Part shown: positions 51,263-64,000 of the stretch, one piece after another
Layout: every line of letters begins with the position of its first letter
How positions within the stretch are numbered: the first letter of the stretch is position 1
NCBI GenBank assembly: GCA_965227295.1
Contig: OZ245742.1
Coordinates: 4,384,001-4,448,000, forward strand
Source: Leptonemataceae bacterium
GTDB lineage: Bacteria; Spirochaetota; Leptospiria; Leptospirales; Leptonemataceae
DNA length: 64,000 bases
Reading direction: 5' to 3'
Notes under the pieces: model-generated
What the model was told of the DNA's origin: nothing
The model's input: the letters and a program-made list of their open reading frames with translations, nothing else
Databases searched by the model: none
Program-made: the position numbers and the translations under genes

Positions 51263-51880
51263 TCAGGGACGCCAGTCGTTTTCGTTCCAGAGTTGGTCCG
51301 TGGAGATGCTATTCGTATTCGCGTCGTAAGAGCGCGCCGCACGTTCCATGCGCCGCCGTTCTTCCGTGCTCTTCTGGCCGGCTTCTTCCGGCGCAGTGCC
51401 GTCGCTGCGCGATTCCGCCCCCGGTACCGGCGGCATGGAACGCGTGAGCTGTTCGTACATGGCCTTGCCGAGATCAAAACCGTCGCTTTTCGCCACGGAC
51501 TTCGCGTACTCGTCGTAGAGCATATCCTCGAAGACTTCCTGTCGAAAACCACCGTGCAGAAGATTATTCTCCGGCTTCAGGTTCTTGCGCATGGACTTGA
51601 ACATCATGTTGATGAACATGGCCTCGAACTCTTCGGCGGCATCGTAGAGGCGGCGGCGCTGCGGATCGCGTTCCAGTTCGGCTTCGATGTCGACTTCCCG
51701 ACGGACCTGCCCGGAGGCGACAGTGCCCTCTTCCTGTAACACGGGAAAGTATCGTTCCAGTTCCGCGCGCTGCGGCGTGGACGCCGGGCCGACAGCGGCC
51801 TGTCCCTGCCGGGCGATTGCGGGAGGTACGTTAGCACCGGGGATGCGTGCTTTTGCTGCTTCTATGCTCAAGGGATTCAT
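51263..51880 (-). CDS. flgJ: Rod-binding FlgJ (no muramidase domain)
   Basis: LYDAAEEFEAMFINMMFKSMR...FEDMLYDEYA...MYEQL. Confidence 0.88.
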   Translation of the reverse strand: MNPLSIEAAKARIPGANVPPAIARQGQAAVGPASTPQRAELERYFPVLQEEGTVASGQVRREVDIEAELERDPQRRRLYDAAEEFEAMFINMMFKSMRKNLKPENNLLHGGFRQEVFEDMLYDEYAKSVAKSDGFDLGKAMYEQLTRSMPPVPGAESRSDGTAPEEAGQKSTEERRRMERAARSYDANTNSISTDQLWNENDWRP

Positions 51881-51906
51881 TCGTTTTCTCTAATATTTGT
51901 TAATGT

Positions 51907-53049
51907 TCAGTTTACGATCAGTTCCGCGTGCAGGGCACCCGAGTCTCGCAAGGCTTCGAGGATGGCAATAACGTCCTGGACGCTGGCTCCCATCTCGTTC
52001 AGCCCTTTGACGATTTCAGCGACGTTCGTACCGGAAAATTCCTGCGTCACCGGTTTGCGCTCACCGTCACCGCCTTCCTGGCCGGGCAGATGAATTCCCA
52101 AACGCGCATCGCGCATGTCGCCGGTTACGATCAGTTCCATGCCGCCGCGGGTTACCGCCACCGGATCCACGCGAACCTCACCGCCCATCACGATCGTACC
52201 CGTACGTTCGTTGATGACGACGCGCGCGCGGTAGTCCGGCTGGATGCGCATCTGTTCCATACGCGCGATGGTTTCGACGACGTTGGCGCCCTCCGGAATC
52301 GTTACGAGTATCGAACCGCCTTCGATGACGATCTCGGCCCCTTCTAATTCCTGGGCGAGCTTTTTGCTGACGAGATCGAGAGTCGAAAAATCAAACTGCA
52401 AGAGCGACACGCGTACCCGGCGGGCGTCGGGATTCTGCGCCGGATCGTTTTGATTCGGTTCGAGCAGATTCGCCGGCACTTCGCGTTCCACAATCGCACC
52501 GTTCAACACCAGGCCGACCGTCTCACCGGTACGGCTGTAACCGCGTTCCGGACTTTTGCCGCCGGTGGTGACGACTCCCTGGGCGACGGCATAAATACTT
52601 TGATTGCCCGCCACGAGCGGCGTCTGAATCAGCACGCCGCCTTCCAGGGAACGCGCGTCCCCGATGGAAGAAACCGTGGCGTTCAAACGATCGCCCCGGC
52701 CGGCAAAGGGCGGAACCTCCGCCGTCACAATGACCGCGGCGATGTTCCGCGCGTTCAGGCCGGCGTTCTCCAGATTCTGGCCGAGACCGCCCAGTAAATT
52801 GCGAATGGATTCCGATGCGAGCTTCGAGCGCGAATCTCCACTGCCCGGCAGGCCCACCACCAGTCCGTAACCGATCAACTGGTTCGTGCGCACACCCGTG
52901 ATGCGCGCGAGATCCTTGAGACGCACGCCGTCTTTTGCGTTCGCCGGCGTTTCGGCGTTTTCTTGCTCGGGTTGCTGGGCGGCCAGGGGCAGCGCCAGCA
53001 GGGTCAGCACGGTGACTAACATGATATTATTTATAGCTAACGATCTCAC
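51907..53049 (-). CDS. flgI: Flagellar P-ring protein
   Basis: RLKDL..GVRTNQLIGYGLVVGLPGSGD, SSIGDARSLEGG, VINERTGTIV, GALHAEL. Confidence 0.96.
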   Translation of the reverse strand: MRSLAINNIMLVTVLTLLALPLAAQQPEQENAETPANAKDGVRLKDLARITGVRTNQLIGYGLVVGLPGSGDSRSKLASESIRNLLGGLGQNLENAGLNARNIAAVIVTAEVPPFAGRGDRLNATVSSIGDARSLEGGVLIQTPLVAGNQSIYAVAQGVVTTGGKSPERGYSRTGETVGLVLNGAIVEREVPANLLEPNQNDPAQNPDARRVRVSLLQFDFSTLDLVSKKLAQELEGAEIVIEGGSILVTIPEGANVVETIARMEQMRIQPDYRARVVINERTGTIVMGGEVRVDPVAVTRGGMELIVTGDMRDARLGIHLPGQEGGDGERKPVTQEFSGTNVAEIVKGLNEMGASVQDVIAILEALRDSGALHAELIVN

Positions 53050-53720
53050 TGCTCGCCGCCTTCTCCCAGGACACGGTTCAGATACTCCAGCAGGAGTTGC
53101 TGCTGTTCGCGCTCGGACAGTTCCGCCGACGGCACCGCCGGATCGCCGGGGTTTTCACCGGGCACGGTTTTCAGTGGGATGTCCTTGGTCTGCGGGATGG
53201 GCAGGCCCGTAACGGTGATCTGGAGGTCGGCCACGGCCTCGGAGTCGATGCGGCGACCCGGCTGAATGTCGCCGATATGTACACGGCCGCTGACCTGGAA
53301 AAGCTGGCGCGTGCGTCCGTTCTCCTGAGCCAGTAGCTTTGTACCGGTGAATGTTACGGTTTCGTTTTCCACGTCGTCGCTGACCGTGACGGCCATCCGG
53401 AAACGAATGTGGCTGTCGGATTCCACGTCCGCCGTGGTCTTATTCGTGATGCTCTTCGTGCTGTCCGCCGGCGGCAAAAACGGCGTCAGGCTCTGATCCG
53501 GAACGATCTTGATCGTGATGTCCTCGTCGGACATGTTCTCGTATTCGTAGCGAATGCGAACGGGCTCGTCCACGTTCAGTTTCAGGATGGTTCCCTGCCG
53601 CAGATTGCGGTGAGATCCATACGGATTGTGATCCTGCCAGAGATTCTGGGCGAACAGATACGGGACGGACATCACCACTACGATGAAGACCGTCAGGATT
53701 TTGTAGATGAATTCGTTCAT
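53046..53720 (-). CDS. flgH: Divergent FlgH-like protein
   Basis: Position between flgA and flgI; G.ILKLNVDE, GTK, VSGRV..DI...IDS..VADLQI pattern. Confidence 0.7.
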   Translation of the reverse strand: MNEFIYKILTVFIVVVMSVPYLFAQNLWQDHNPYGSHRNLRQGTILKLNVDEPVRIRYEYENMSDEDITIKIVPDQSLTPFLPPADSTKSITNKTTADVESDSHIRFRMAVTVSDDVENETVTFTGTKLLAQENGRTRQLFQVSGRVHIGDIQPGRRIDSEAVADLQITVTGLPIPQTKDIPLKTVPGENPGDPAVPSAELSEREQQQLLLEYLNRVLGEGGEQ

Positions 53721-54760
53721 CGCCCTTCCCCGTGATCGTCGGATTGGTTTTTGCGATCGTAAACGACGGTGCCCTCTCCGATCACAGTGACGGTCAGCGT
53801 TTTGGAATTCCGGCCGGACGGATACAGCACGCGCACCGGAATGCGATCGCCCGGATCGCCGTTGCGAAGGGCTACCGAACGCAGTCGAAACACCATCCCC
53901 GGCCGTTGATACACCAGGCGCAACGATTGGCCGCGGCGAATCACCGGCATAAGCTGAACGTGAGAGGAGGTAAGCTCGGTGCCGGAACGCACGTCGCTCA
54001 TTACACGCCGGCCGCTCAGATCACCGGAGGCGTACTGTGCGTCCTCATGTTCCAGTTCGCGTTCTTCCAGACGATAGTCGTCTTTCGTCAGACGATGGCC
54101 GACGGGCAAATCCCGTGCGGCAACGGGAATCTTGCGTTTCTTTAAGATCGTTACCTGAATCTGGTGCCGGGCAAAGACCACGTTCTTCGACGGACTCTCG
54201 CCGACGTCCTCCGGAACGACGTCCAGGGGAATAATGCGACGCCCCGGGCTGAGCGCACCGGCACGGGAGGGCAGACGATATAGAAGGCGAACCCCCTCGG
54301 ACGGCACCGGGATCTTTACGTTGGGAGCGAGCCGCAGCACGAGGCTACCGTCGCGCTCACCGCCGGACAGCGCGTCGATTTCTTTCAGAAGCATGGCTTC
54401 CAGCGCCTGGTTATCCAGGACTCGCCCCTGCGGCACAACCCAGGTCCCCGCCCCGTAGACACGTTCGAGTTTGCCCGGCCCGTTTCCCAGACCGCGTCGC
54501 AGCTCCGCGGCCTGCACGTAACGCGGTGCGTGCAGATCACGAAAGAGCAGCTTCTCTGCGATCTGCTTCGCATCCGCGGCGGAGGATTCCGCCCCCGCTT
54601 CCACACGACCCAGGTCGCCCAGACGGACCGGCCCGGCCGGTACTTGCACCTGACTCTGGAGATAGACGGAGTACGCAAAGAGCGCCTGCGGCATCATTAA
54701 GAAAAGACCGCAGACGATCAGTACCGGAAGCGCGCGCTTATGTGAACGGGGCAAACTCAA
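53717..54760 (-). CDS. flgA: P-ring chaperone FlgA
   Basis: SAF-like VAARDLPVGH; IRRGQ...ALRNGDPGDRIPVR. Confidence 0.88.
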   Translation of the reverse strand: MSLPRSHKRALPVLIVCGLFLMMPQALFAYSVYLQSQVQVPAGPVRLGDLGRVEAGAESSAADAKQIAEKLLFRDLHAPRYVQAAELRRGLGNGPGKLERVYGAGTWVVPQGRVLDNQALEAMLLKEIDALSGGERDGSLVLRLAPNVKIPVPSEGVRLLYRLPSRAGALSPGRRIIPLDVVPEDVGESPSKNVVFARHQIQVTILKKRKIPVAARDLPVGHRLTKDDYRLEERELEHEDAQYASGDLSGRRVMSDVRSGTELTSSHVQLMPVIRRGQSLRLVYQRPGMVFRLRSVALRNGDPGDRIPVRVLYPSGRNSKTLTVTVIGEGTVVYDRKNQSDDHGEGR

Positions 54761-54770
54761 GGTTCCTCAA

Positions 54771-55568
54771 TTATCGCTTCATTCCGATGGCGGTGCCTAA
54801 CATCGTGTCGCTGGTAGTTACGGCCTTGGAGTTCGATTCGTAGGCGCGCTGGGCGACGATCATGTTCACCATTTCTTCGACGAGCTTTACATTAGAAGTT
54901 TCCAGAAATCCCTGCAACAGACCGCCGAAGCCGTCCAGGCCCGGTGTGCCCTGAATCTCAGGACCGCTGGCCACGGTTTCTTTGAACAGGTTCTTGCCGA
55001 TGGCCTTCAGCCCGGCCGGGTTAACGAAACGATAGGTATCGATCTGCCCGATGCGCGTGGGACGAATCTCGTCGCCGATCTTGACGGAGACTTCGCCGTT
55101 TTCCGTGATCTGGAGCGTGTTGTTGATCGCCCCGGGCGGCAACGTAATGGGCGGCTCTAAGAGATAACCGTTGGAAGTTACGATCTGACGGCGGCTGTCG
55201 ATTTTGAAACTGCCGTCCCGGGTGTAACCGAAGGTGCCGTCCGGTTGCAGGATCTTGAAGAAGCCCACCTCGGAAGTGATGGCGATGTCGAACTTATTGC
55301 CCGTGCCCTGGAGGCTGCCCATCTCGAAGAGCTTTTGCGTCGCAGCGGTTTTCACACCGTGGCCGACGTAGACGCCCGTGGGAATCTCGCTCACCGCCGT
55401 GGCCGGCGTTCCGGCCAGGATCTGCTGCTGATAGACGAGATCCTCAAAGTCCACCCGGTTCTTTTTGAAGCCGTAAGTGTTTACGTTCGCCAGGTTATTG
55501 GAAATCGTATCGATGTTGTACTGCTGTGCCACCATTCCACTGGCGGCGCTCCAGAGCGATCTAAGCAT
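54771..55568 (-). CDS. flgG: Distal rod protein FlgG
   Basis: MLRSLWSAASGM, SNNLANVNT.GFK, YTRDGSF, LETSNV..VEEMVNMI.AQRAYE. Confidence 0.97.
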   Translation of the reverse strand: MLRSLWSAASGMVAQQYNIDTISNNLANVNTYGFKKNRVDFEDLVYQQQILAGTPATAVSEIPTGVYVGHGVKTAATQKLFEMGSLQGTGNKFDIAITSEVGFFKILQPDGTFGYTRDGSFKIDSRRQIVTSNGYLLEPPITLPPGAINNTLQITENGEVSVKIGDEIRPTRIGQIDTYRFVNPAGLKAIGKNLFKETVASGPEIQGTPGLDGFGGLLQGFLETSNVKLVEEMVNMIVAQRAYESNSKAVTTSDTMLGTAIGMKR

Positions 55569-55632
55569 GTTGCCGTTCTCCTGCCGATCCGCATACGACC
55601 GGCGCCGGGACGCACGCGCCCCGTCCTGTACA

Positions 55633-55659
55633 GGATCGGCATTTCCGGAAAAAGAATGA
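55633..55659 (-). promoter_or_regulatory. Candidate sigma28 promoter TCAT-N15-GCCGATCC for the flgG operon
   Basis: Resembles the TAAA-N15-GCCGATAA consensus with the correct spacing. Confidence 0.4.
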
Positions 55660-55679
55660 GTAAATCGAGGGCTGCGGGA

Positions 55680-56987
55680 CTATTTCGGCTGCCGCCGGAC
55701 GACCAGGCAGCGGTTCGTATTCGTGCCTTTTTCGTTGTTTTTAACGTCCCAGCAGTTGGCGAGCTTGGTGAACTTCTGGGTGTTGATGAAGACCTCATCG
55801 GCGACGAGCATATCTCCGCCGGAGAGACGAATCGGCAGGCGCTCCAGCAACAGTTCTTCCAGGTTCGCCACCGCTCCACCGACGACCACTTCGCCGACCT
55901 CGATCACCGCCCGGCCGCCGGGTTTCAGAACCCGGCCGAGCTCCGCCATGACCGCGGCCATAAAATCACACCACTCAACAACGTCCGGGGTGATCGTCAG
56001 TTCCGGCTCCACCCCTTCCCGGCCCAGGAACCAGGCCCGCATCCAGTTGTCGGTGAGATAATCGACCTTATCCAGAAACGGCGGCGAGGTCACCACGAGG
56101 TCCACGCTACGGGGACGCAGACCGCGGAGTTTGCGAGCATCTTCGTTTAAGTAACGATTGCGCGCGGAGACGGATCGATACTGCTCCGGCAGTGCGGTAC
56201 CCAGGTCCGTTTTCATTTTGCGAATGATGCGTTCTTTGATCCCGCGGTACTCCGGGCGTTGATTGCGCCGCACGTTATTGCGCTGCTGGGCCTCGGGTAA
56301 AATCGAAATCTGCGGAAACGAATAAACCGAAAAGAAACCTCCGGAGTGGCCGTGCAGTCGCGAAAGCGCCGTGAGGCCGATGTAGCGCAGGGCATGGTCG
56401 CGCTCTTCGAAGGGCAGCGCTTCGTTCGTCAGGACCAGGGCACGCAGCGCCGCGATTTCTTCGAGCGTCTTCGAATGAAAGAACGGCAGTAACCGTTCGC
56501 GATCGCCTTCCGGCAATTCCGGCGCCCGGCTCAAGTCCAGGGCCTGCACACGTTCGCTGAGTTCGGCCAGGGACGGAATGCGCGAGCGAGCCGATGCCAG
56601 AAAGAGCGAAACGGGGTTCAGGTCATTGTGTACGCCGCGAAAGCCCAGGAGATTCGCCTGGATCACGGTCGTCCCGCGGCCGCCGAAGGGATCCAGCACC
56701 GTCGCCGAACGAACGCCGGCATCCGTAAGATAGCGGCGAATGAAAAAGTCCGGCAGCTCCGGTTTGAACGAGGCGCGATAGCTGACGGTATAGTGGATCG
56801 GATGCATCTGCCGCTGTTTCGCGGTCCAGAGTTCGCCGGCGCTCACGCGCACCTTCGAGGCGCCGATGCGCCGCACGGCGACCTCTAAGTTTCGTTGAGT
56901 GGATGGTTGTACTCTGCTGATTGCGGCCGACATCTTCGAGATTGTCGGCGCAGCACAAGACGCAGGCGGACTTTTTTCGGATTTCAA
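55680..56987 (-). CDS. Orphan amino-DNA methyltransferase (m4C/m6A), motif I before motif IV
   Basis: SYRASFKP, LDPFGGRGTT, DLNP, LVVTSPPF; start uncertain; no adjacent endonuclease. Confidence 0.88.
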   Translation of the reverse strand: MKSEKSPPASCAAPTISKMSAAISRVQPSTQRNLEVAVRRIGASKVRVSAGELWTAKQRQMHPIHYTVSYRASFKPELPDFFIRRYLTDAGVRSATVLDPFGGRGTTVIQANLLGFRGVHNDLNPVSLFLASARSRIPSLAELSERVQALDLSRAPELPEGDRERLLPFFHSKTLEEIAALRALVLTNEALPFEERDHALRYIGLTALSRLHGHSGGFFSVYSFPQISILPEAQQRNNVRRNQRPEYRGIKERIIRKMKTDLGTALPEQYRSVSARNRYLNEDARKLRGLRPRSVDLVVTSPPFLDKVDYLTDNWMRAWFLGREGVEPELTITPDVVEWCDFMAAVMAELGRVLKPGGRAVIEVGEVVVGGAVANLEELLLERLPIRLSGGDMLVADEVFINTQKFTKLANCWDVKNNEKGTNTNRCLVVRRQPK

Positions 56988-57121
56988 CTCTTCGCGTCAG
57001 CGATACGGAGGGTTGCGCCGCCAGGCGCAATTCCGGAGCGCGAAGCGCGGAGGAACGAGCGATTAGCGAGCCCGGAGTAGCGCGGTCCTGGCCGCCTGGG
57101 CCTGGCGGCCAGGAGACGCCC
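56988..57121 (+). repeat. Family A element
   Basis: Closely similar to 13412-13543, with compensatory stem changes. Confidence 0.9.
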
Positions 57122-57296
57122 GGGTCCAATCGCTACCGCAAGAATCTACATCCGATGTGCTGTTTTCTATATATAGTCGCTCTCAGCGGATTTGAATTTT
57201 GGTACGCCCCCGAAAAAAAGTTTCTTCTGCATTTCTCAAGAGACCGATCTTGAATGTGAAGATTCTGCGTTTAGAGGTTCAAGGAGGACACTCGAA

Positions 57297-58145
57297 ATGG
57301 TCATCAATCACAATATAAGCGCGATCAACGCTCATCGTAACTTGAAGTTTAACGACTACGAAATGATGGGCGATATCGAGAAGCTGTCGTCCGGTATGCG
57401 GATCAACCGTGCCGGCGACGACGCCGCGGGTCTCGCGGTATCGGAAAAGATGCGCACCCAGGTCCACGGCCTGCGCCAGGCGACCCGGAACGCCGAAGAC
57501 GGCATTTCGTTCATTCAAACAACGGAAGGCTACTTACAGGAAACGCAGAATATGCTTCAGCGTATCCGTGTTCTGGCCGTCCAGGCCGCGAACGGCATCT
57601 ACACCGCGGAAGACCGCCAGCAAATCCAGGTGGAAATTTCCCAGCTTATCGATGAAATCGATCGCATTGCATCTCAGGCCGAGTTCAATAAGATGAAGAT
57701 GCTCACCGGCGCCTTCGCCCGTCTGAACCCGTCCGCTTCGATGTGGTTTCACATCGGCGCCAACATGCACCAGCGCGAACGTGTCTATGTAAACACCATG
57801 ACCACTGCCGCCCTGGGTCTGCGGAACCCCACCGTGCTCACGTTTATTTCGATCAGCACGCCGGACAAGGCCAACTCCGTCATCGGACTGGCGGACGACG
57901 CCCTCCGCCGCGTAAGCAAGCAACGCGCGGACCTCGGTGCTTACCAGAACCGCCTCGAACACGCGACCAAGGGACTCATGAACGCCTACGAAAACATCCA
58001 GGCGGCGGAATCCCGCATTCGCGACACCGATATGGCCGAACGCATGACGTCGTTCACCCGCTATCAGATTCTCGTGCAGGCCGCCACCGCGATGGTCGCC
58101 CAATCGAACATGCGGACGCAGACGGTCATGCAGCTCCTCCGTTAA
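57297..58145 (+). CDS. flaB: Periplasmic flagellar filament core protein FlaB
   Basis: [68 protein letters not shown]. Confidence 0.97.
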
Positions 58146-60317: not shown

Positions 60318-60624
60318 CTCTTGCGCCAGGGATTGGAAGGGTCGCGAAGCGAGGGCCTGACTAAAAAGGCCGCTCAGGGATGACGGAGCGGCCGCAGACT
60401 ATCAATTCTTGCGTTAGCGATTGGAGGGGTGGGCCGAAGGCCCAGTCTCAGCCGTCTTCGGCTGAGACCGCAGCGAAGCGGAGCCCCGGGCCGCTCTCGG
60501 ACATCCTGTCCTTCGCGGCATAAGGCCATCCATGGCCAAAAAAGCGCGACCAATTCCGCCCCGCTTGTCGGGGCGGAATTCCTTCTCTTCCCCACCGAGC
60601 GCGAAGCGCGGAGGGGAACTCCCA
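60318..60624 (+). repeat. Family A cluster (partial copy plus an expanded copy at 60406-60624)
   Basis: TCTTGCGTTAGCGATTGGAGGGGT...GTCTCAG..CTGAGACCGCAGCGAAGCGGAGCCC...GGGGAACTCCCA, sharing blocks with 13581-13702. Confidence 0.78.
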
Positions 60625-60837: not shown

Positions 60838-63438
60838 TTATCCCGCTTCCACTTCTTCTTTCAACGCCAGTTGCGCCACGGCGAGCAGTGCGATGGGCAC
60901 GCTGTAGGAACTGCACGAGACATACTGCAAACCGGCGGCCCGGCAGAACTCGATGTTCTCCGGATCGGCGCCGTGCTCGCCGCACAGACCGAGCTTAATG
61001 TCCGGCCGCGTGAGCCGACCGCGGATGCTGCTGATCTTGATGAGTTCTTTCACCGGCACGCCGAGGACCTGGAAGGGATTCGCCGCCAGGAGGTCGTACT
61101 CCGTGTAGGCCGGGAAGAACGAGTTCGAATCGTCGCGGCTGAGGCCGTTGGTGGTCTGGGTAAGATCGTTCGTGCCGTAACTGAAAAACTCGGCGTAGCG
61201 CGCCAGCTCGTCCGAAAGCAGGGCCGCCGCAGGCAGCTCCACCATGGTGCCGATCTTGTACTCGACCGAGGTGCCTTCTTTTTCGAAGACGTCCGCCGCG
61301 ATCTCCGCCGCGCCGCGAACATGCTTGCCCTCGATCTTCTTGCCGTTGCGGATCATGTTCAACTCGGACGGATTCATGATCAGCGGGATCATGATTTCGG
61401 GCACGACGTTGTCGTTGCCTTCTTTCTTGAGCTTGCACGCCGCTTCCAGGATGGCGCGGATCTGCATTTCGTAGATTTCCGGATACGTGATGGCCACGCG
61501 GCAACCGCGGTGACCGAGCATGGGATTGAACTCGTGCAGGCGATCCACCTGGGCGTCGATCTCGGTGGTGTCCGGCGTAATGCCTTTGCCTTTCAGATAC
61601 TCAAGATAGTCGTTCATGACCGACTCGGTGCGCGGCAGGAACTCGTGGAGCGGCGCGTCCAGGAGACGGATGGTCACCGGATGCGGGGCCATGGTGCTGA
61701 AAAGATCGTAGAAGTCCTGGCGCTGCAGCGGCTGCAGATCGTCCAGACACTTGATGCGCGTCTCGGTGTCTTTCGCCAGGATCATTTCGCGGAAACGATT
61801 GATGCGGTCGTCGGCAAAAAACATGTGCTCCGTGCGGCACAGGCCGATGCCGTAAGCGCCCATGGTCTTCGCCACTTTGGCGTCGCGCCCCAGGTCGGCG
61901 TTGGCACGGACCACGAAGTCCGGCTTAATGAACTTCTTGATGACCTCGATGAAGTCGGTCAGCCCGTTCGTGTGGATGTCGGGGTTGATCAGCTCCGCTT
62001 TACCGAGAAAGATCGTCGGCTCCTTGTAGACCGGCACATCGAGAGTTACGTAGTCGCCTTCTTTCACGGTGACGCCGTTGAGCTCGAACTGTTTGTCGCC
62101 GTACTTGATGTCCGTGTTCACCACGCTCACCTTACCCATCGAACGCGCGACCACCGGAGCGTGGGAACTGTATCCGCCTTCCACGGAGATGACGCCCTGC
62201 CCGACCTCGATGGCCTTCACGTCTTCGGCATACGAAGCCTCGACACAGAGGACGAGCCGCGTGTCCTCGCCTTTCTGCAACGCGTCCCGATGGGCTTCCA
62301 TGAGCGCGTCCGCCGAAAAGTAGACGCGCCCCACGGCAGCACCGGGAGAACCCGCAAGACCGCCGCTCACGGACGGAATGGACGTGACCGATTCCGGATC
62401 CACGATGGGGTGCAGCAACGTTGCCAGTTGTCCCGGCGGGATCTGCTCAACGAGCCATTTGTCTTCGACGACGTTTTCTTTCATGAGATCCAGGAGCGTA
62501 CGGATGTGCGCCTGGGTGGACTTCTTGTCCTCGGCGGTCTGGTTGATGATCCAGATGTTGCCCTGCTCGACGATGAACTTCACCTCGCGCAGTTCGCGGA
62601 ACTTGTGCTCCAGCTTGCGGCCGATTTCGTTCATCTCTTTCAGGTAGGTCTCGTCCATGCCGTGAATGTCTTCGCCCTTGTTTTCCAGGGTGTAGGCCTT
62701 GCGCACGAAACTGCCCTGTAACTTAGCGTCGCCGGTGATGATGTTCCGCGTGAAGAACATGCCCACCATATCGTTCTCGCTGAGGTTGCCAAAGACCATG
62801 CCCTGCACCATGACGGAGAGGTTGTCGTCTTCGTCCAGTTCCGGGTCGTAATAACGTTTCGCCGCATGTTTGATGACGGCTTCCAGTTGCGCCATGGGAT
62901 CGTCCGGGATCCTGTCCGGGCCGATGAGCGCCTGCATTTCGTCGGCGCACTTCTGCATGTCCTCGGCAGTGCGTTCGTACTTCTTTTCGATCTCGTCGAA
63001 CTTCCCGGGCTCGATGTCGAAGAGTTTGATGCCGGCGGTACGCAAGAGGTAGCAGTACTCGAACCAGGCCGAGGCCTCCCCGATCATCTTCGCGAAGCCG
63101 GGAATGGTGACCGGAGACAGTCCGACGTTGAACACGGTCGGATAGATGGGCAGCACCAGGTTCGCGCTGCACACGACCTTCACGAGCAGCGGATTTTCCG
63201 AATCGCCGTATTTGCGGCCGATGCCTTTTTCGATGTGCGCCAGTCCCGGCGGAGCGATGCTCTTAACATCGAGGTTTTCGATCTTAGAAACAGTGCGGGA
63301 TTCGAATATGAAGCCGGGCACCACCGGCATCTTCAGTTCGGCAAGTTCCAGTGCTCGCTGCCCCCGTTTTCCGGATCGCTCCCAGACGTCCTGGTCCGAG
63401 GTGCAACCTTCCTGGCTGAACATATGAATTTGTGACAT
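60838..63438 (-). CDS. Pyruvate phosphate dikinase-like protein with a degenerate ATP-grasp domain
   Basis: GGYSSHAPVVAR, GIGLCRTEHMF, IRLLDAPLHEF, NPMLGHRGCR, GTNDLTQ and GLCGEHG are intact; N-terminal ATP motifs are altered. Confidence 0.88.
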   Translation of the reverse strand: MSQIHMFSQEGCTSDQDVWERSGKRGQRALELAELKMPVVPGFIFESRTVSKIENLDVKSIAPPGLAHIEKGIGRKYGDSENPLLVKVVCSANLVLPIYPTVFNVGLSPVTIPGFAKMIGEASAWFEYCYLLRTAGIKLFDIEPGKFDEIEKKYERTAEDMQKCADEMQALIGPDRIPDDPMAQLEAVIKHAAKRYYDPELDEDDNLSVMVQGMVFGNLSENDMVGMFFTRNIITGDAKLQGSFVRKAYTLENKGEDIHGMDETYLKEMNEIGRKLEHKFRELREVKFIVEQGNIWIINQTAEDKKSTQAHIRTLLDLMKENVVEDKWLVEQIPPGQLATLLHPIVDPESVTSIPSVSGGLAGSPGAAVGRVYFSADALMEAHRDALQKGEDTRLVLCVEASYAEDVKAIEVGQGVISVEGGYSSHAPVVARSMGKVSVVNTDIKYGDKQFELNGVTVKEGDYVTLDVPVYKEPTIFLGKAELINPDIHTNGLTDFIEVIKKFIKPDFVVRANADLGRDAKVAKTMGAYGIGLCRTEHMFFADDRINRFREMILAKDTETRIKCLDDLQPLQRQDFYDLFSTMAPHPVTIRLLDAPLHEFLPRTESVMNDYLEYLKGKGITPDTTEIDAQVDRLHEFNPMLGHRGCRVAITYPEIYEMQIRAILEAACKLKKEGNDNVVPEIMIPLIMNPSELNMIRNGKKIEGKHVRGAAEIAADVFEKEGTSVEYKIGTMVELPAAALLSDELARYAEFFSYGTNDLTQTTNGLSRDDSNSFFPAYTEYDLLAANPFQVLGVPVKELIKISSIRGRLTRPDIKLGLCGEHGADPENIEFCRAAGLQYVSCSSYSVPIALLAVAQLALKEEVEAG

Positions 63439-63575
63439 GAGTAATATGACTCCGCTGAGATTTGGATGAGCGCCGTCCGGCGCATGTTTGGTCTACGGCT
63501 GCGCGCAACGGCCTTCTGGAACCGGGAACGCACAGGCGAACTATTGAAACGCACACCCGAATTGTAAACGATTTA

Positions 63576-64000
63576 TTAGGCGTTCTTCTGGTCCGTCGGT
63601 GCCACGCCGGGTTCGTAAATGGAGACGTTGTTGCGCCCGCGGTGCTTGCAGATGTAGAGCGCGTCGTCGGCGAGTTTGACGAAGTCGTCCACCTCGTTGA
63701 TGTACTGCGAGTGCAGTGGATAACTGGACACGCCTATGGATATCGTAATGTGGGCGACCTGATCACCAATGGGGATGGGGCGAGACTCGATGTTCTTACG
63801 AATGAGTTCGCCGACTTCCATGCCGCGGTCCGGGCCGGAATCGGGGAGCAACACCACGAACTCTTCGCCTCCGTAGCGGCCGGCAATGTCGTCGCTCCCG
63901 AGCTTGTGTACGGTCTCTTTGATGACGTGAGCGAGTTCTACCAGGGCCTGGTCGCCGCCCTGGTGGCCGTAGGTATTGTTTACGTTGCGAAAGAGATCAA
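63576..64000 (-). CDS. Diguanylate cyclase, C-terminal GGDEF domain (5' end outside the window)
   Basis: VNNTYGHQGGD..., DIAGRYGGEEFVVLL, ADDALY..K..GRN. Confidence 0.92.
   Translation of the reverse strand, partial: DLFRNVNNTYGHQGGDQALVELAHVIKETVHKLGSDDIAGRYGGEEFVVLLPDSGPDRGMEVGELIRKNIESRPIPIGDQVAHITISIGVSSYPLHSQYINEVDDFVKLADDALYICKHRGRNNVSIYEPGVAPTDQKNA

What the first reader, a model, noticed from the sequence alone, without database searches (positions are those of the whole stretch)
60838..63438. PPDK with a disabled ATP site: a possible PEP-driven, Enzyme-I-like phosphodonor
Seen: the protein is full length. The swivel-domain phospho-His (GGYSSHAP; His codon at 62161-62163) and the PEP/pyruvate-domain motifs (CRTEH, IRLLD, GHRGCR, MVE, GTND, LCGEH) are intact. 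The ATP-grasp motifs are replaced: canonical SVRSGA..SMPGMMDT reads KVVCSANLVLPIYPT, and DxEFT..LQTR reads EVKFI..INQTA. The Thr two residues before the His is Ser. Known: these Arg/Asp/Glu/Gln residues bind ATP-Mg in PPDK, and PTS Enzyme I uses only the PEP-to-His half reaction. Inference: the protein may autophosphorylate from PEP and pass the phosphate to a partner or act as a PEP sensor, with the N-domain kept as a docking or ligand module. It lies directly downstream of a diguanylate cyclase on the same strand.
Basis: partly seen in the sequence, partly recalled or inferred. Interest (0 to 1): 0.72.

Follow-up and report, generated by a model that had tools for sequence, protein, structure and literature searches.

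The report
Filament-linked PPDK paralogue without ATP site
This gene looks like the enzyme pyruvate phosphate dikinase but has lost the usual ATP-binding residues, and across spirochaetes, including the syphilis agent, it is inherited together with the cytoplasmic filament gene.

Summary
Window 60838-63438 (minus strand) encodes an 866-aa full-length PPDK homologue. The phospho-His motif and all PEP/pyruvate-domain motifs are intact. The canonical ATP/Mg residues are replaced: K22R, R92V, D321E, E323K, R337A; only Q335 is kept.

The replaced residues are themselves conserved, so the site is rebuilt, not decayed. The protein belongs to a monophyletic paralogue clade on a long branch from 35 canonical PPDKs. 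In 301 sampled Spirochaetota genomes the clade occurs in 102.

- At least 11 of 18 own-family genomes also carry a canonical PPDK.
- 101 of the 102 also carry cfpA, the cytoplasmic filament gene. In 84 of them cfpA lies upstream on the same strand within 10 kb.
- An unnamed gene X, with a predicted HPr-fold domain (Z 10.0), usually lies between them.
- T. pallidum TP0746 belongs to the clade. That genome shows no pyruvate kinase and no canonical PPDK.
- The diguanylate cyclase link is confined to the own family: 10 of 11 loci there, 0 of 49 elsewhere.

The Enzyme-I-like reading is plausible and untested. This scan noted the same thing earlier on other DNA (e1-5048466).

The parts
60838..63438 (-). 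PPDK-paralogue gene (866 aa, P0001), including the stop codon
   Evidence: ORF list and translation. Full-length alignment to solved PPDKs. AF2 model pLDDT 89.8, pTM 0.84, best Foldseek matches all PPDK.
62404..63438 (-). N-terminal ATP-grasp-fold domain (residues 1-345) with a rebuilt nucleotide cleft: R25, K87, V89, E285, K287, Q300, A302
   Evidence: Pfam PPDK_N is below its cut-off. The model is confident in this region.
61999..62403 (-). Swivelling phospho-His domain (residues 346-480). GGYSSH at 421-426, His426 codon at 62161-62163
   Evidence: PF00391 match at residues 396-467. H426 is invariant in 68 clade members.
60841..61941 (-). PEP/pyruvate-binding TIM-barrel domain (residues about 500-866) with CRTEH, IRLLD, GHRGCR, MVE, GTND and LCGEH intact
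   Evidence: PF02896 E 1.6e-67. Motif positions. Invariant columns.
63576..64000 (-). 3' part of a GAF-GGDEF diguanylate cyclase gene (359 aa in all). It runs past the window end to the window-equivalent position 64655
   Evidence: PF00990 on the window part. Whole protein has GAF plus GGDEF domains. Adjacent to the paralogue in 10 of 11 own-family loci and in 0 of 49 loci of other families.
63540..63568 (-). Promoter-like site in the 137-nt gap between the GGDEF gene and the paralogue
   Evidence: Consensus scan, 9 of 12 matches. 2 sites were found against 1.0 expected, so this is weak.
60552..60580 (+). 12-pair GC-rich hairpin between the convergent gene ends downstream of the paralogue
   Evidence: Terminator-like scan; consensus match only.

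Best explanation
The gene encodes a member of an old, spirochaete-wide paralogue family of pyruvate phosphate dikinase. The family is part of the cytoplasmic-filament gene module cfpA - gene X - PPDK paralogue.

Most likely mechanism, all of it inferred:
1. The intact C-terminal domain takes the phosphoryl group of PEP onto His426 of the swivel domain, releasing pyruvate. This is the step that PPDK and PTS Enzyme I share.
2. The swivel domain carries the phosphoryl group to the N-terminal ATP-grasp-fold domain.
3. That cleft no longer holds the Mg/ATP ligands. It is lined with conserved basic residues (R25, K87, R231, R284, K/R287, K306) and Q300.
4. There the phosphoryl group passes to an acceptor other than AMP/PPi. 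The candidates are a protein of the module (gene X, which has an HPr-fold domain, or CfpA) or a small anion such as orthophosphate.

The enzyme probably works bound to, or beside, the CfpA filament ribbon. In the own family a GAF-GGDEF gene and other genes have been inserted into the module, which may add a c-di-GMP layer locally.
For: Shown by tools:
- Full-length PPDK architecture and fold.
- PEP-domain and His residues invariant in 68 clade members.
- Canonical ATP/Mg residues replaced and the replacements conserved. This holds in 119 clade members against 66 canonical sequences and in 20 of 20 loci from diverse families for R25, K87 and Q300.
- The canonical motifs QGEDVVAG..RTP and RA..YR are lost.
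- The clade is monophyletic (31 of 31, SH support 1.0) on a 0.89 substitutions/site branch from 35 canonical PPDKs, 7 of them spirochaetal.
- The paralogue was found in 18 of 18 own-family genomes. At least 11 of these also hold a canonical PPDK with canonical motifs.
- The own genome has PpsA, PtsI, HPr and pyruvate kinase.
- Phylum sample of 301 genomes: paralogue in 102, cfpA in 107, gene X in 106. All three occur in 100 and none in 193. The 8 partial genomes are 80-97% complete.
- cfpA lies on the same contig within 10 kb in 85 of the 102, and upstream on the same strand in 84. In 83 the gap is 1.1-2.2 kb, which is one gene.
- Gene X residues 73-166 superpose on whole HPr at Z 10.0, rmsd 1.7 A, 81 of 83 residues. 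Unrelated folds for that region score about Z 5.
- N-domain dN/dS is 0.07-0.16.

From papers, read as passages:
- In T. denticola, TDE0842 cfpA, TDE0843 and TDE0844 'PPDK, putative' are repressed together (PMC3914990 Table 5).
Against: - No biochemical data exist for any clade member in the library searched.
- K22R and D321E are conservative changes, and Q335 and the MVFGN hinge are kept, so a nucleotide may still bind.
- In rifampin phosphotransferase the Mg-ligand mutant Glu297Ala stays active (PMC4844700 passages). Loss of one Mg ligand therefore does not prove loss of ATP chemistry.
- Genome G123, whose gene matches published TP0746 positions and residues, has no pyruvate kinase (0 candidates) and no canonical PPDK. 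There the paralogue may have to carry glycolytic PEP-to-pyruvate flux, which fits an energy-conserving dikinase as well.
- X has no conserved His at the HPr His15-equivalent position.
- X shows no sequence signal to HPr: hhalign probability 1-3% and no Pfam match.
- A soluble abundant enzyme can contaminate an envelope fraction.
- Gene order within one phylum is partly inherited, and related genomes are not independent samples.
Confidence: 0.5

Rival explanations
1. It is still a true pyruvate phosphate dikinase (PEP + AMP + PPi <-> pyruvate + ATP + Pi). Its nucleotide site is built from a different residue set, for example K87 and K/R287 standing in for R92 and a metal. The filament neighbourhood is an inherited gene order or a way of placing the enzyme in the cell.
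For: - The whole three-domain machine is kept under purifying selection.
- The ATP-grasp fold is predicted with pLDDT above 90.
- Q335, the MVFGN hinge and R231 are conserved.
- G123 has this paralogue as its only PPDK-family enzyme and no pyruvate kinase.
- The literature treats TP0746 as the glycolytic Ppdk (PMC10013896 and PMC8525777 passages).
- The RPH Glu297Ala mutant is active.
Against: - Residues recalled as essential from C. symbiosum mutagenesis (Ye et al. 2001; recalled, paper not held) are changed: R92 to V/I and E323 to K/R. D321 is variable.
- The Gly-rich loop is shortened, and two further motifs that are invariant in canonical PPDKs are deleted.
- At least 11 of 18 related genomes keep a canonical PPDK beside it.
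- The N-domain evolves faster relative to the C-domain than in canonical PPDK: identity ratio 0.68 against 0.97.
Confidence: 0.25
2. It is mainly a structural or scaffolding component of the cytoplasmic filament ribbon, for example one of the unidentified bridging or anchoring parts. Its enzyme chemistry would be secondary or used only as a metabolic sensor.
For: - Near-perfect co-inheritance and adjacency with cfpA.
- TDE0844 is a major band of the T. denticola envelope fraction together with CfpA.
- A reference list names a tomography paper on 'novel bridging and anchoring components' of the filaments (seen only as a title, in PMC3398590).
- Some distant relatives have also lost PEP-domain motifs: P0099, P0131, P0134, P0139, P0141 and P0143.
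Against: In the clade proper, every catalytic residue of the PEP domain and the His is invariant. A pure scaffold would not need that.
Confidence: 0.12
3. It is a c-di-GMP-linked device. The rebuilt N-domain would bind c-di-GMP or GTP made or used by the upstream GAF-GGDEF enzyme, or the protein would control that cyclase according to the PEP/pyruvate ratio.
For: - A GAF-GGDEF gene lies directly upstream on the same strand in 10 of 11 own-family loci, with gaps of about 40-230 nt.
- Its GAF domain best matches the GAF of the PtsP/EI-Ntr model, E 3.9e-16.
- The cleft is basic.
Against: - 0 of 49 loci outside the family have a GGDEF gene beside the paralogue.
- The rebuilt cleft is the same in lineages without the cyclase, so it did not evolve for this.
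- A promoter-like site sits in the gap (weak).
Confidence: 0.08

Closest known systems
Canonical pyruvate phosphate dikinase (C. symbiosum 1KBL/2R82; TIGR01828)
   Same: Same three-domain order, full-length alignment (E about 1e-158) and same fold. Same phospho-His motif position and the same PEP/pyruvate catalytic residues.
   Different: - ATP/Mg residues are replaced and three canonical N-domain motifs are lost.
- It scores below the TIGR01828 and PPDK_N cut-offs.
- It forms a separate deep clade.
- It coexists with canonical PPDK in relatives.
- It is tied to cfpA.
PTS Enzyme I / EI-Ntr with HPr / NPr
   Same: - A homologous PEP-binding domain and swivel His domain.
- A PEP-to-His half reaction with no ATP.
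- A neighbouring small protein with an HPr-fold domain.
   Different: - The N-terminus is an ATP-grasp fold, not the EIN helical HPr-binding subdomain.
- TIGR01417 scores 101.7 bits against a cut-off of 341.7.
- X lacks a conserved His at the His15-equivalent position and has two further domains.
- True PtsI and HPr exist elsewhere in the genome.
M. tuberculosis VadK (Rv1127c), a PPDK-derived histidine kinase (PMC13400623; abstract and outline read)
   Same: A PPDK descendant that has left central metabolism for a regulatory phospho-His role.
   Different: From my recall of the gene's size, and from model NF004531 matching only residues 31-441 here, VadK keeps the ATP-grasp and His domains and lacks the PEP domain. 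The present protein is the mirror case: it keeps the PEP and His domains and rebuilds the ATP site.
Rifampin phosphotransferase (PMC4844700; passages read)
   Same: An ATP-grasp domain plus a swivel His domain delivering phosphate to a non-standard acceptor bound by a third domain.
   Different: RPH keeps ATP chemistry and replaces the PEP domain. Here the PEP domain is kept and the ATP site is changed. The structural match is weak (TM about 0.18).

Membership tests
Pyruvate phosphate dikinase (EC 2.7.9.1; TIGR01828) | Three domains in the order ATP-grasp, swivel His, PEP/pyruvate barrel, alignable over the full length | tested here: met
   Residues 23-860 align to 2r82/1kbl. Foldseek top 16 rows are all PPDK, E about 1e-68.
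Pyruvate phosphate dikinase (EC 2.7.9.1; TIGR01828) | Score above the curated equivalog cut-off (843.45 bits) and above the Pfam PPDK_N gathering score (27 bits) | tested here: not met
   666.3 bits and 21.9 bits.
Pyruvate phosphate dikinase (EC 2.7.9.1; TIGR01828) | ATP/Mg-site residues K22, R92, D321, E323, Q335, R337 (roles recalled from C. symbiosum mutagenesis; invariance in 66 canonical sequences measured here) | tested here: not met
   They read R, V, E, K, Q, A; only Q335 is kept. The canonical set is 100% K/R/D/E/Q/R at these columns.
Pyruvate phosphate dikinase (EC 2.7.9.1; TIGR01828) | Catalytic His455 and the PEP-domain residues (R561, R617, E745, N768, D769, C831) | tested here: met
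   H426, CRTEH, IRLLD, MVE, GTND and LCGEH are present and invariant in the clade.
Pyruvate phosphate dikinase (EC 2.7.9.1; TIGR01828) | ATP/Pi-dependent dikinase activity | not testable with these tools
PTS Enzyme I (TIGR01417) | Curated score, and an EIN domain with the helical HPr-binding subdomain | tested here: not met
   101.7 bits against a cut-off of 341.7, with matches only in the PEP domain. The N-terminus models as the PPDK nucleotide-binding domain.
PTS Enzyme I (TIGR01417) | Phosphotransfer from PEP through His to an HPr-type carrier | not testable with these tools
   The neighbour X has an HPr-fold domain, but no transfer can be shown. The complex predictor was not available.
PEP synthase (NF005057 / TIGR01418) | Curated equivalog score | tested here: not met
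   107.6 bits against 598, and 99.2 bits against 739.75. A canonical PpsA lies elsewhere in the genome.
cfpA-linked PPDK paralogue clade (unnamed; includes TP0746) | Signature GxRG, LLxKx[VI]xS, [VI][KR]F, Q300 and GG[YF][SA][SA]HA[PS], and placement inside the clade | tested here: met
   The clade HMM A1 includes this protein, so its own score is circular.
cfpA-linked PPDK paralogue clade (unnamed; includes TP0746) | cfpA and gene X upstream on the same strand | tested here: met
   cfpA lies at G000:C1:4455428-4457245 (-), 7990 nt upstream. This is the largest gap among the 85 adjacent cases. X lies at 4454072-4455031 (-).

The most novel reading that the evidence does not exclude
cfpA - X - PPDK paralogue is a previously unrecognised PEP-driven phosphotransfer system attached to the spirochaetal cytoplasmic filament. 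PEP would charge His426, and the rebuilt ATP-grasp cleft would dock the HPr-fold protein X (or CfpA) in place of a nucleotide. Phosphorylation would then tune filament assembly, cell division or chromosome handling to the PEP/pyruvate state.

A bolder metabolic version: the cleft passes the phosphate to orthophosphate, making PPi for the PPi-dependent glycolysis of treponemes. The 'Ppdk' step in models of T. pallidum metabolism would then be wrong.
Probability: 0.25. Interest if true: 0.9.

Novelty: new variant of a known kind. Interest (0 to 1): 0.78.

Why it matters
- The clade includes the gene annotated as the glycolytic Ppdk of the syphilis spirochaete (TP0746) and, by gene order, T. denticola TDE0844. 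Published work takes these to make ATP from PEP, AMP and PPi (PMC10013896 passage). If the ATP site is not functional, energy and PPi budgets of treponemes need revising.
- The tie to cfpA and to an HPr-fold neighbour gives the first genomic partners for the cytoplasmic filament, whose function and accessory proteins are poorly known.
- It warns that cfpA insertion mutants may have polar effects on two downstream genes.
- It offers a natural example of an ATP-grasp cleft turned to another use while the PEP-His machinery is kept.
- In the library searched, I found no paper that notes the altered ATP site or the cfpA link.

Tried and rejected
- **Complex prediction (paralogue with gene X).** It never ran. 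The queue was full, then the tool was declared not available. Binding of X to the paralogue is therefore untested.
- **The search for related loci on genome contigs.** By identity to the query (47-55% against 34-40% for the rest), about 4 of the 80 loci look like paralogue-type genes, and 3 of these carry spirochaete titles. It added nothing.
- **Sequence link of X to HPr.**
  - Pfam at E up to 10 on four C-terminal pieces gave nothing relevant.
  - hhalign of the X N- or C-part against 29 spirochaetal HPr sequences gave probability 1-3%.
  - The HPr likeness is by fold only.
- **T. pallidum two-hybrid supplement (PMC2386257, file 1).**
  - TP0746 has no rows.
  - TP0747 has 5 rows, all with promiscuous preys.
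  - TP0748 has 1 row.
  - This is uninformative.
- **Third paralogue.** Genomes showing '3 matches' to TIGR01828 turned out to have split hits of one canonical gene.
- **PDRP/DUF299 regulator of the Thr/Ser before the His.** It was not found in 5 of 5 genomes checked.
- **Papers not held:** Ye et al. 2001 and the cfpA papers PMC94976, PMC94139 and PMC2519799. Residue roles in C. symbiosum are therefore recalled. They are backed only by PDB entry titles (K22A, R337A, T453A mutants) and by the RPH paper.
- **Minges et al. 2017** gave no residue list in the passages seen.
- **Pocket geometry.** The tools give no coordinates, so a shifted-register ATP site could not be excluded structurally.
Full report
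**1. What is at the coordinates**

The ORF at window 60838-63438 lies on the minus strand and encodes 866 residues from an ATG.

Library matches:
- Pfam finds the PEP-binding domain (E 1.6e-67) and the mobile His domain (E 1.8e-08).
- The nucleotide-binding domain model PPDK_N reaches only 21.9 bits against a cut-off of 27.
- The NCBIfam PPDK equivalog TIGR01828 aligns end to end but scores 666.3 bits against a cut-off of 843.45.

Against solved structures the best matches are the C. symbiosum PPDK entries, at E about 1e-158, aligned over residues 23-860. In that alignment:
- K22 reads R25 and S90 reads K87.
- R92 reads V89 and R95 reads N92.
- G101 of the SMPGMMDT loop is deleted.
- D321 reads E285 and E323 reads K287.
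- Q335 is kept as Q300.
- R337 reads A302.
- T453 reads S424.

That K22, R92, D321, E323 and Q335 are essential and R337 important comes from my recall of Ye et al. 2001, which the library does not hold. Indirect support seen here:
- PDB entries titled K22A, R337A and T453A mutants.
- A passage of the rifampin phosphotransferase paper saying that PPDK Lys22 contacts the gamma-phosphate.

That same paper gives a warning: the Mg-ligand mutant Glu297Ala of that enzyme is still active.

**2. Rebuilt, not decayed**

A word-indexed search with the N-domain found about 100 clusters (P0002-P0102) that share the altered motifs. The source names among them are only Spirochaetia, Leptospiraceae, Leptonema illini, Treponema and the like. 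After these come canonical PPDKs at about 29% identity.

I aligned 119 sequences sorted by the His-motif type GG[YF][SA][SA]HA[PS] with 66 sequences that have canonical motifs.
- Every canonical ATP-site column is 100% conserved in the canonical set.
- It is replaced in the other set by a different, also conserved residue: R25 0.90, K87 0.93, V/I89 0.93, S91 0.92, R284 0.93, K/R287 0.89, K306 0.90, with Q300 kept at 0.95.
- The canonical QGEDVVAG..RTP and RA..YR motifs are absent.
- Sorting by the His motif defines the groups, so this count is not independent of that one motif. The N-domain columns were not used for sorting.

In a curated alignment of 68 clade members, K87 and R231 are invariant in the N-domain. 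H426 and the PEP-domain catalytic residues are invariant too. Twenty loci from many families show the same pattern.

Constraint on the N-domain:
- It is less constrained than in canonical PPDK. The N/C identity ratio is 0.68 against 0.97.
- It is still under purifying selection. dN/dS is 0.07-0.16 against own-genus and family orthologues. dS exceeds 1, so these values are rough.

The AF2 model is confident (pLDDT 89.8, pTM 0.84) and its best matches are all PPDK structures. The tools give no coordinates, so I could not inspect the pocket.

**3. A separate, old paralogue**

A FastTree tree of 31 variant-type, 7 spirochaetal canonical and 28 other canonical sequences puts all 31 in one clade. 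SH support is 1.0, and a branch of 0.89 substitutions per site separates it from all canonical ones. The root is a midpoint root only.

In the own family, 18 of 18 genomes hold the paralogue at 59-80% identity. Eleven fetched second copies have fully canonical motifs. The own genus (G000-G002) and G012 show only the paralogue.

The own genome also encodes:
- a canonical PEP synthase and PtsI;
- HPr;
- pyruvate kinase.

No DUF299 regulator was found. In the sister family, 0 of 45 genomes, nearly all 99% complete, matched PPDK, the paralogue, cfpA or X.

**4. The neighbourhood**

The GAF-GGDEF gene directly upstream is real. It is adjacent to the paralogue in 10 of 11 own-family loci. None of 49 loci from other families has a GGDEF gene beside the paralogue. 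Three have a GAF-only match downstream.

In most other lineages the two genes upstream on the same strand are:
- a protein of about 650-685 aa that NCBIfam names cytoplasmic filament protein CfpA (NF040882: 1227 bits in L074, 876 bits in the own genome);
- an unnamed protein X of about 300-345 aa.

In the own genome the order is cfpA, X, a 239-aa ORF, a VWA protein, an 886-aa ORF, a 156-aa ORF on the other strand, GAF-GGDEF, then the paralogue.

**5. Co-inheritance**

I searched the same evenly drawn sample of 301 Spirochaetota genomes each time.
- The clade HMM scores 1095 bits or more in 102 genomes, and canonical PPDKs score 807 or less.
- cfpA is found in 107 genomes and X in 106.
- All three are found in 100 genomes, at least one in 108, and none in 193.

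The eight partial cases are assemblies of 80-97% completeness. One of them, G102, has a 915-bit hit right beside cfpA.

In 85 of the 102 genomes cfpA is on the same contig within 10 kb. In 84 it is upstream on the same strand. In 83 the gap is 1.1-2.2 kb. In 16 genomes the genes lie on different contigs, and 1 has no cfpA hit.

Related genomes are not independent, so the Fisher value overstates the case. The pattern does vary within families:
- In f17, cfpA, X and the paralogue are each found in the same 10 of 28 genomes, those of genera g37 and g88.
- In f5 they are each found in the same 2 of 8 genomes.

**6. Gene X**

X is a conserved family: 18 sequences with 45% mean column identity and an almost invariant C-terminal 100 residues. 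It has no Pfam or NCBIfam match.

Its AF2 model (pLDDT 80.9) has three parts:
- **Residues 73-166.** These superpose on the whole HPr chain at Z 10.0, rmsd 1.7 A, 81 of 83 residues. Twenty-six HPr or Crh entries reach Z 8.5 or more, NPr reaches 6.9, and unrelated folds on the same region reach about 5. Foldseek E-values for the same hits are weak, 0.04-0.4.
- **The His15-equivalent position.** There is no conserved His there. The invariant histidines are H24 and H234.
- **The C-terminal domain.** It has only middling matches, Z 5-6.6.

Canonical HPr is present in 61 of 61 sampled genomes, whether or not they have the module.

**7. Link to named organisms and experiments**

The paralogue gene of G123 is a 1.14-Mb single-contig genome's gene lying beside cfpA. 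It has Ala at residue 869 and Pro at residue 655, exactly at the genome positions published for TP0746 SNVs (PMC10013896 passages; check). Its motifs are of the variant type. That genome gave no pyruvate kinase candidate, and its only TIGR01828 match is this gene, below the cut-off. The paper states that the enzyme 'most likely' makes pyruvate and ATP from PEP, AMP and diphosphate. I saw no assay.

For T. denticola I read passages only:
- TDE0842 cfpA, TDE0843 and TDE0844 'pyruvate phosphate dikinase, putative' are repressed together in co-culture (PMC3914990 Table 5).

That TDE0844 is the variant copy is inferred from gene order. In the nine g37 genomes the copy next to cfpA is the variant and the canonical copy lies far away.

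**8. Reading**

Shown:
- the altered and conserved cleft;
- the intact PEP-His half;
- the separate clade;
- coexistence with canonical PPDK;
- the cfpA-X-paralogue module.

Inferred:
- autophosphorylation from PEP;
- delivery of the phosphate to a non-nucleotide acceptor at the rebuilt cleft;
- work at the filament.

I put 0.5 on this reading, 0.25 on a still-functional dikinase, 0.12 on a mainly structural role, and 0.08 on a c-di-GMP device, which could only be a local addition.

This scan had already noted the same phenomenon on another genome (e1-5048466). I reached it independently before that look-up, and my counts agree with it.

Noticed in passing
G000:C1:4454072-4455031 (-), which is L094:7069-8049; outside the window, about 7 kb upstream of the gene: The unnamed conserved gene X (326 aa) has a predicted HPr-fold domain at residues 73-166 (Z 10.0). 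It has invariant H24 and H234 and an almost invariant C-terminal 100 residues. It is found in 106 of 301 phylum genomes, nearly always together with cfpA and the paralogue.
   Followed up: partly
L094:576-1655 (-), which is window 63576 to beyond the window end: The GAF domain of the upstream diguanylate cyclase best matches the GAF of the PtsP/EI-Ntr model NF008283 (E 3.9e-16) and of NifA.
   Followed up: no
Proteins P0099, P0131, P0134, P0139, P0141, P0143 (metagenome relatives): These distant relatives keep the variant-type His motif or N-domain, but they have also lost PEP-domain motifs (CRTEH, GTND, CGEH). They look like fully non-catalytic descendants.
   Followed up: no
L082, L083 and the nine rows from G082 to G193: In families f19, f28 and f5 the paralogue ORF is about 965-972 aa. 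The clade HMM matches only from model position 51-142 onward, so the N-terminal part there is longer and more divergent.
   Followed up: no
L090:2330-5254 (+): In G124 the ORF upstream of the paralogue is 975 aa with no Pfam match, and X and cfpA are found on other contigs. This may be a different arrangement or a fusion.
   Followed up: no
Window 51263-58145: A run of ORFs whose translations look like flagellar rod and ring proteins, and a flagellin-like ORF at 57192-58145 (+). These were read by eye only and not searched.
   Followed up: no
Window 55680-56987 (-): A 435-aa ORF with DNA-methyltransferase-like motifs, read by eye. It is conserved beside the flagellar genes in own-family loci. 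It was not searched.
   Followed up: no
T. denticola literature (PMC3398590 passages): The cfpA-interrupted mutant used to define filament function lies upstream, on the same strand, of X and the paralogue. Its pleiotropic defects could therefore include polar effects.
   Followed up: no
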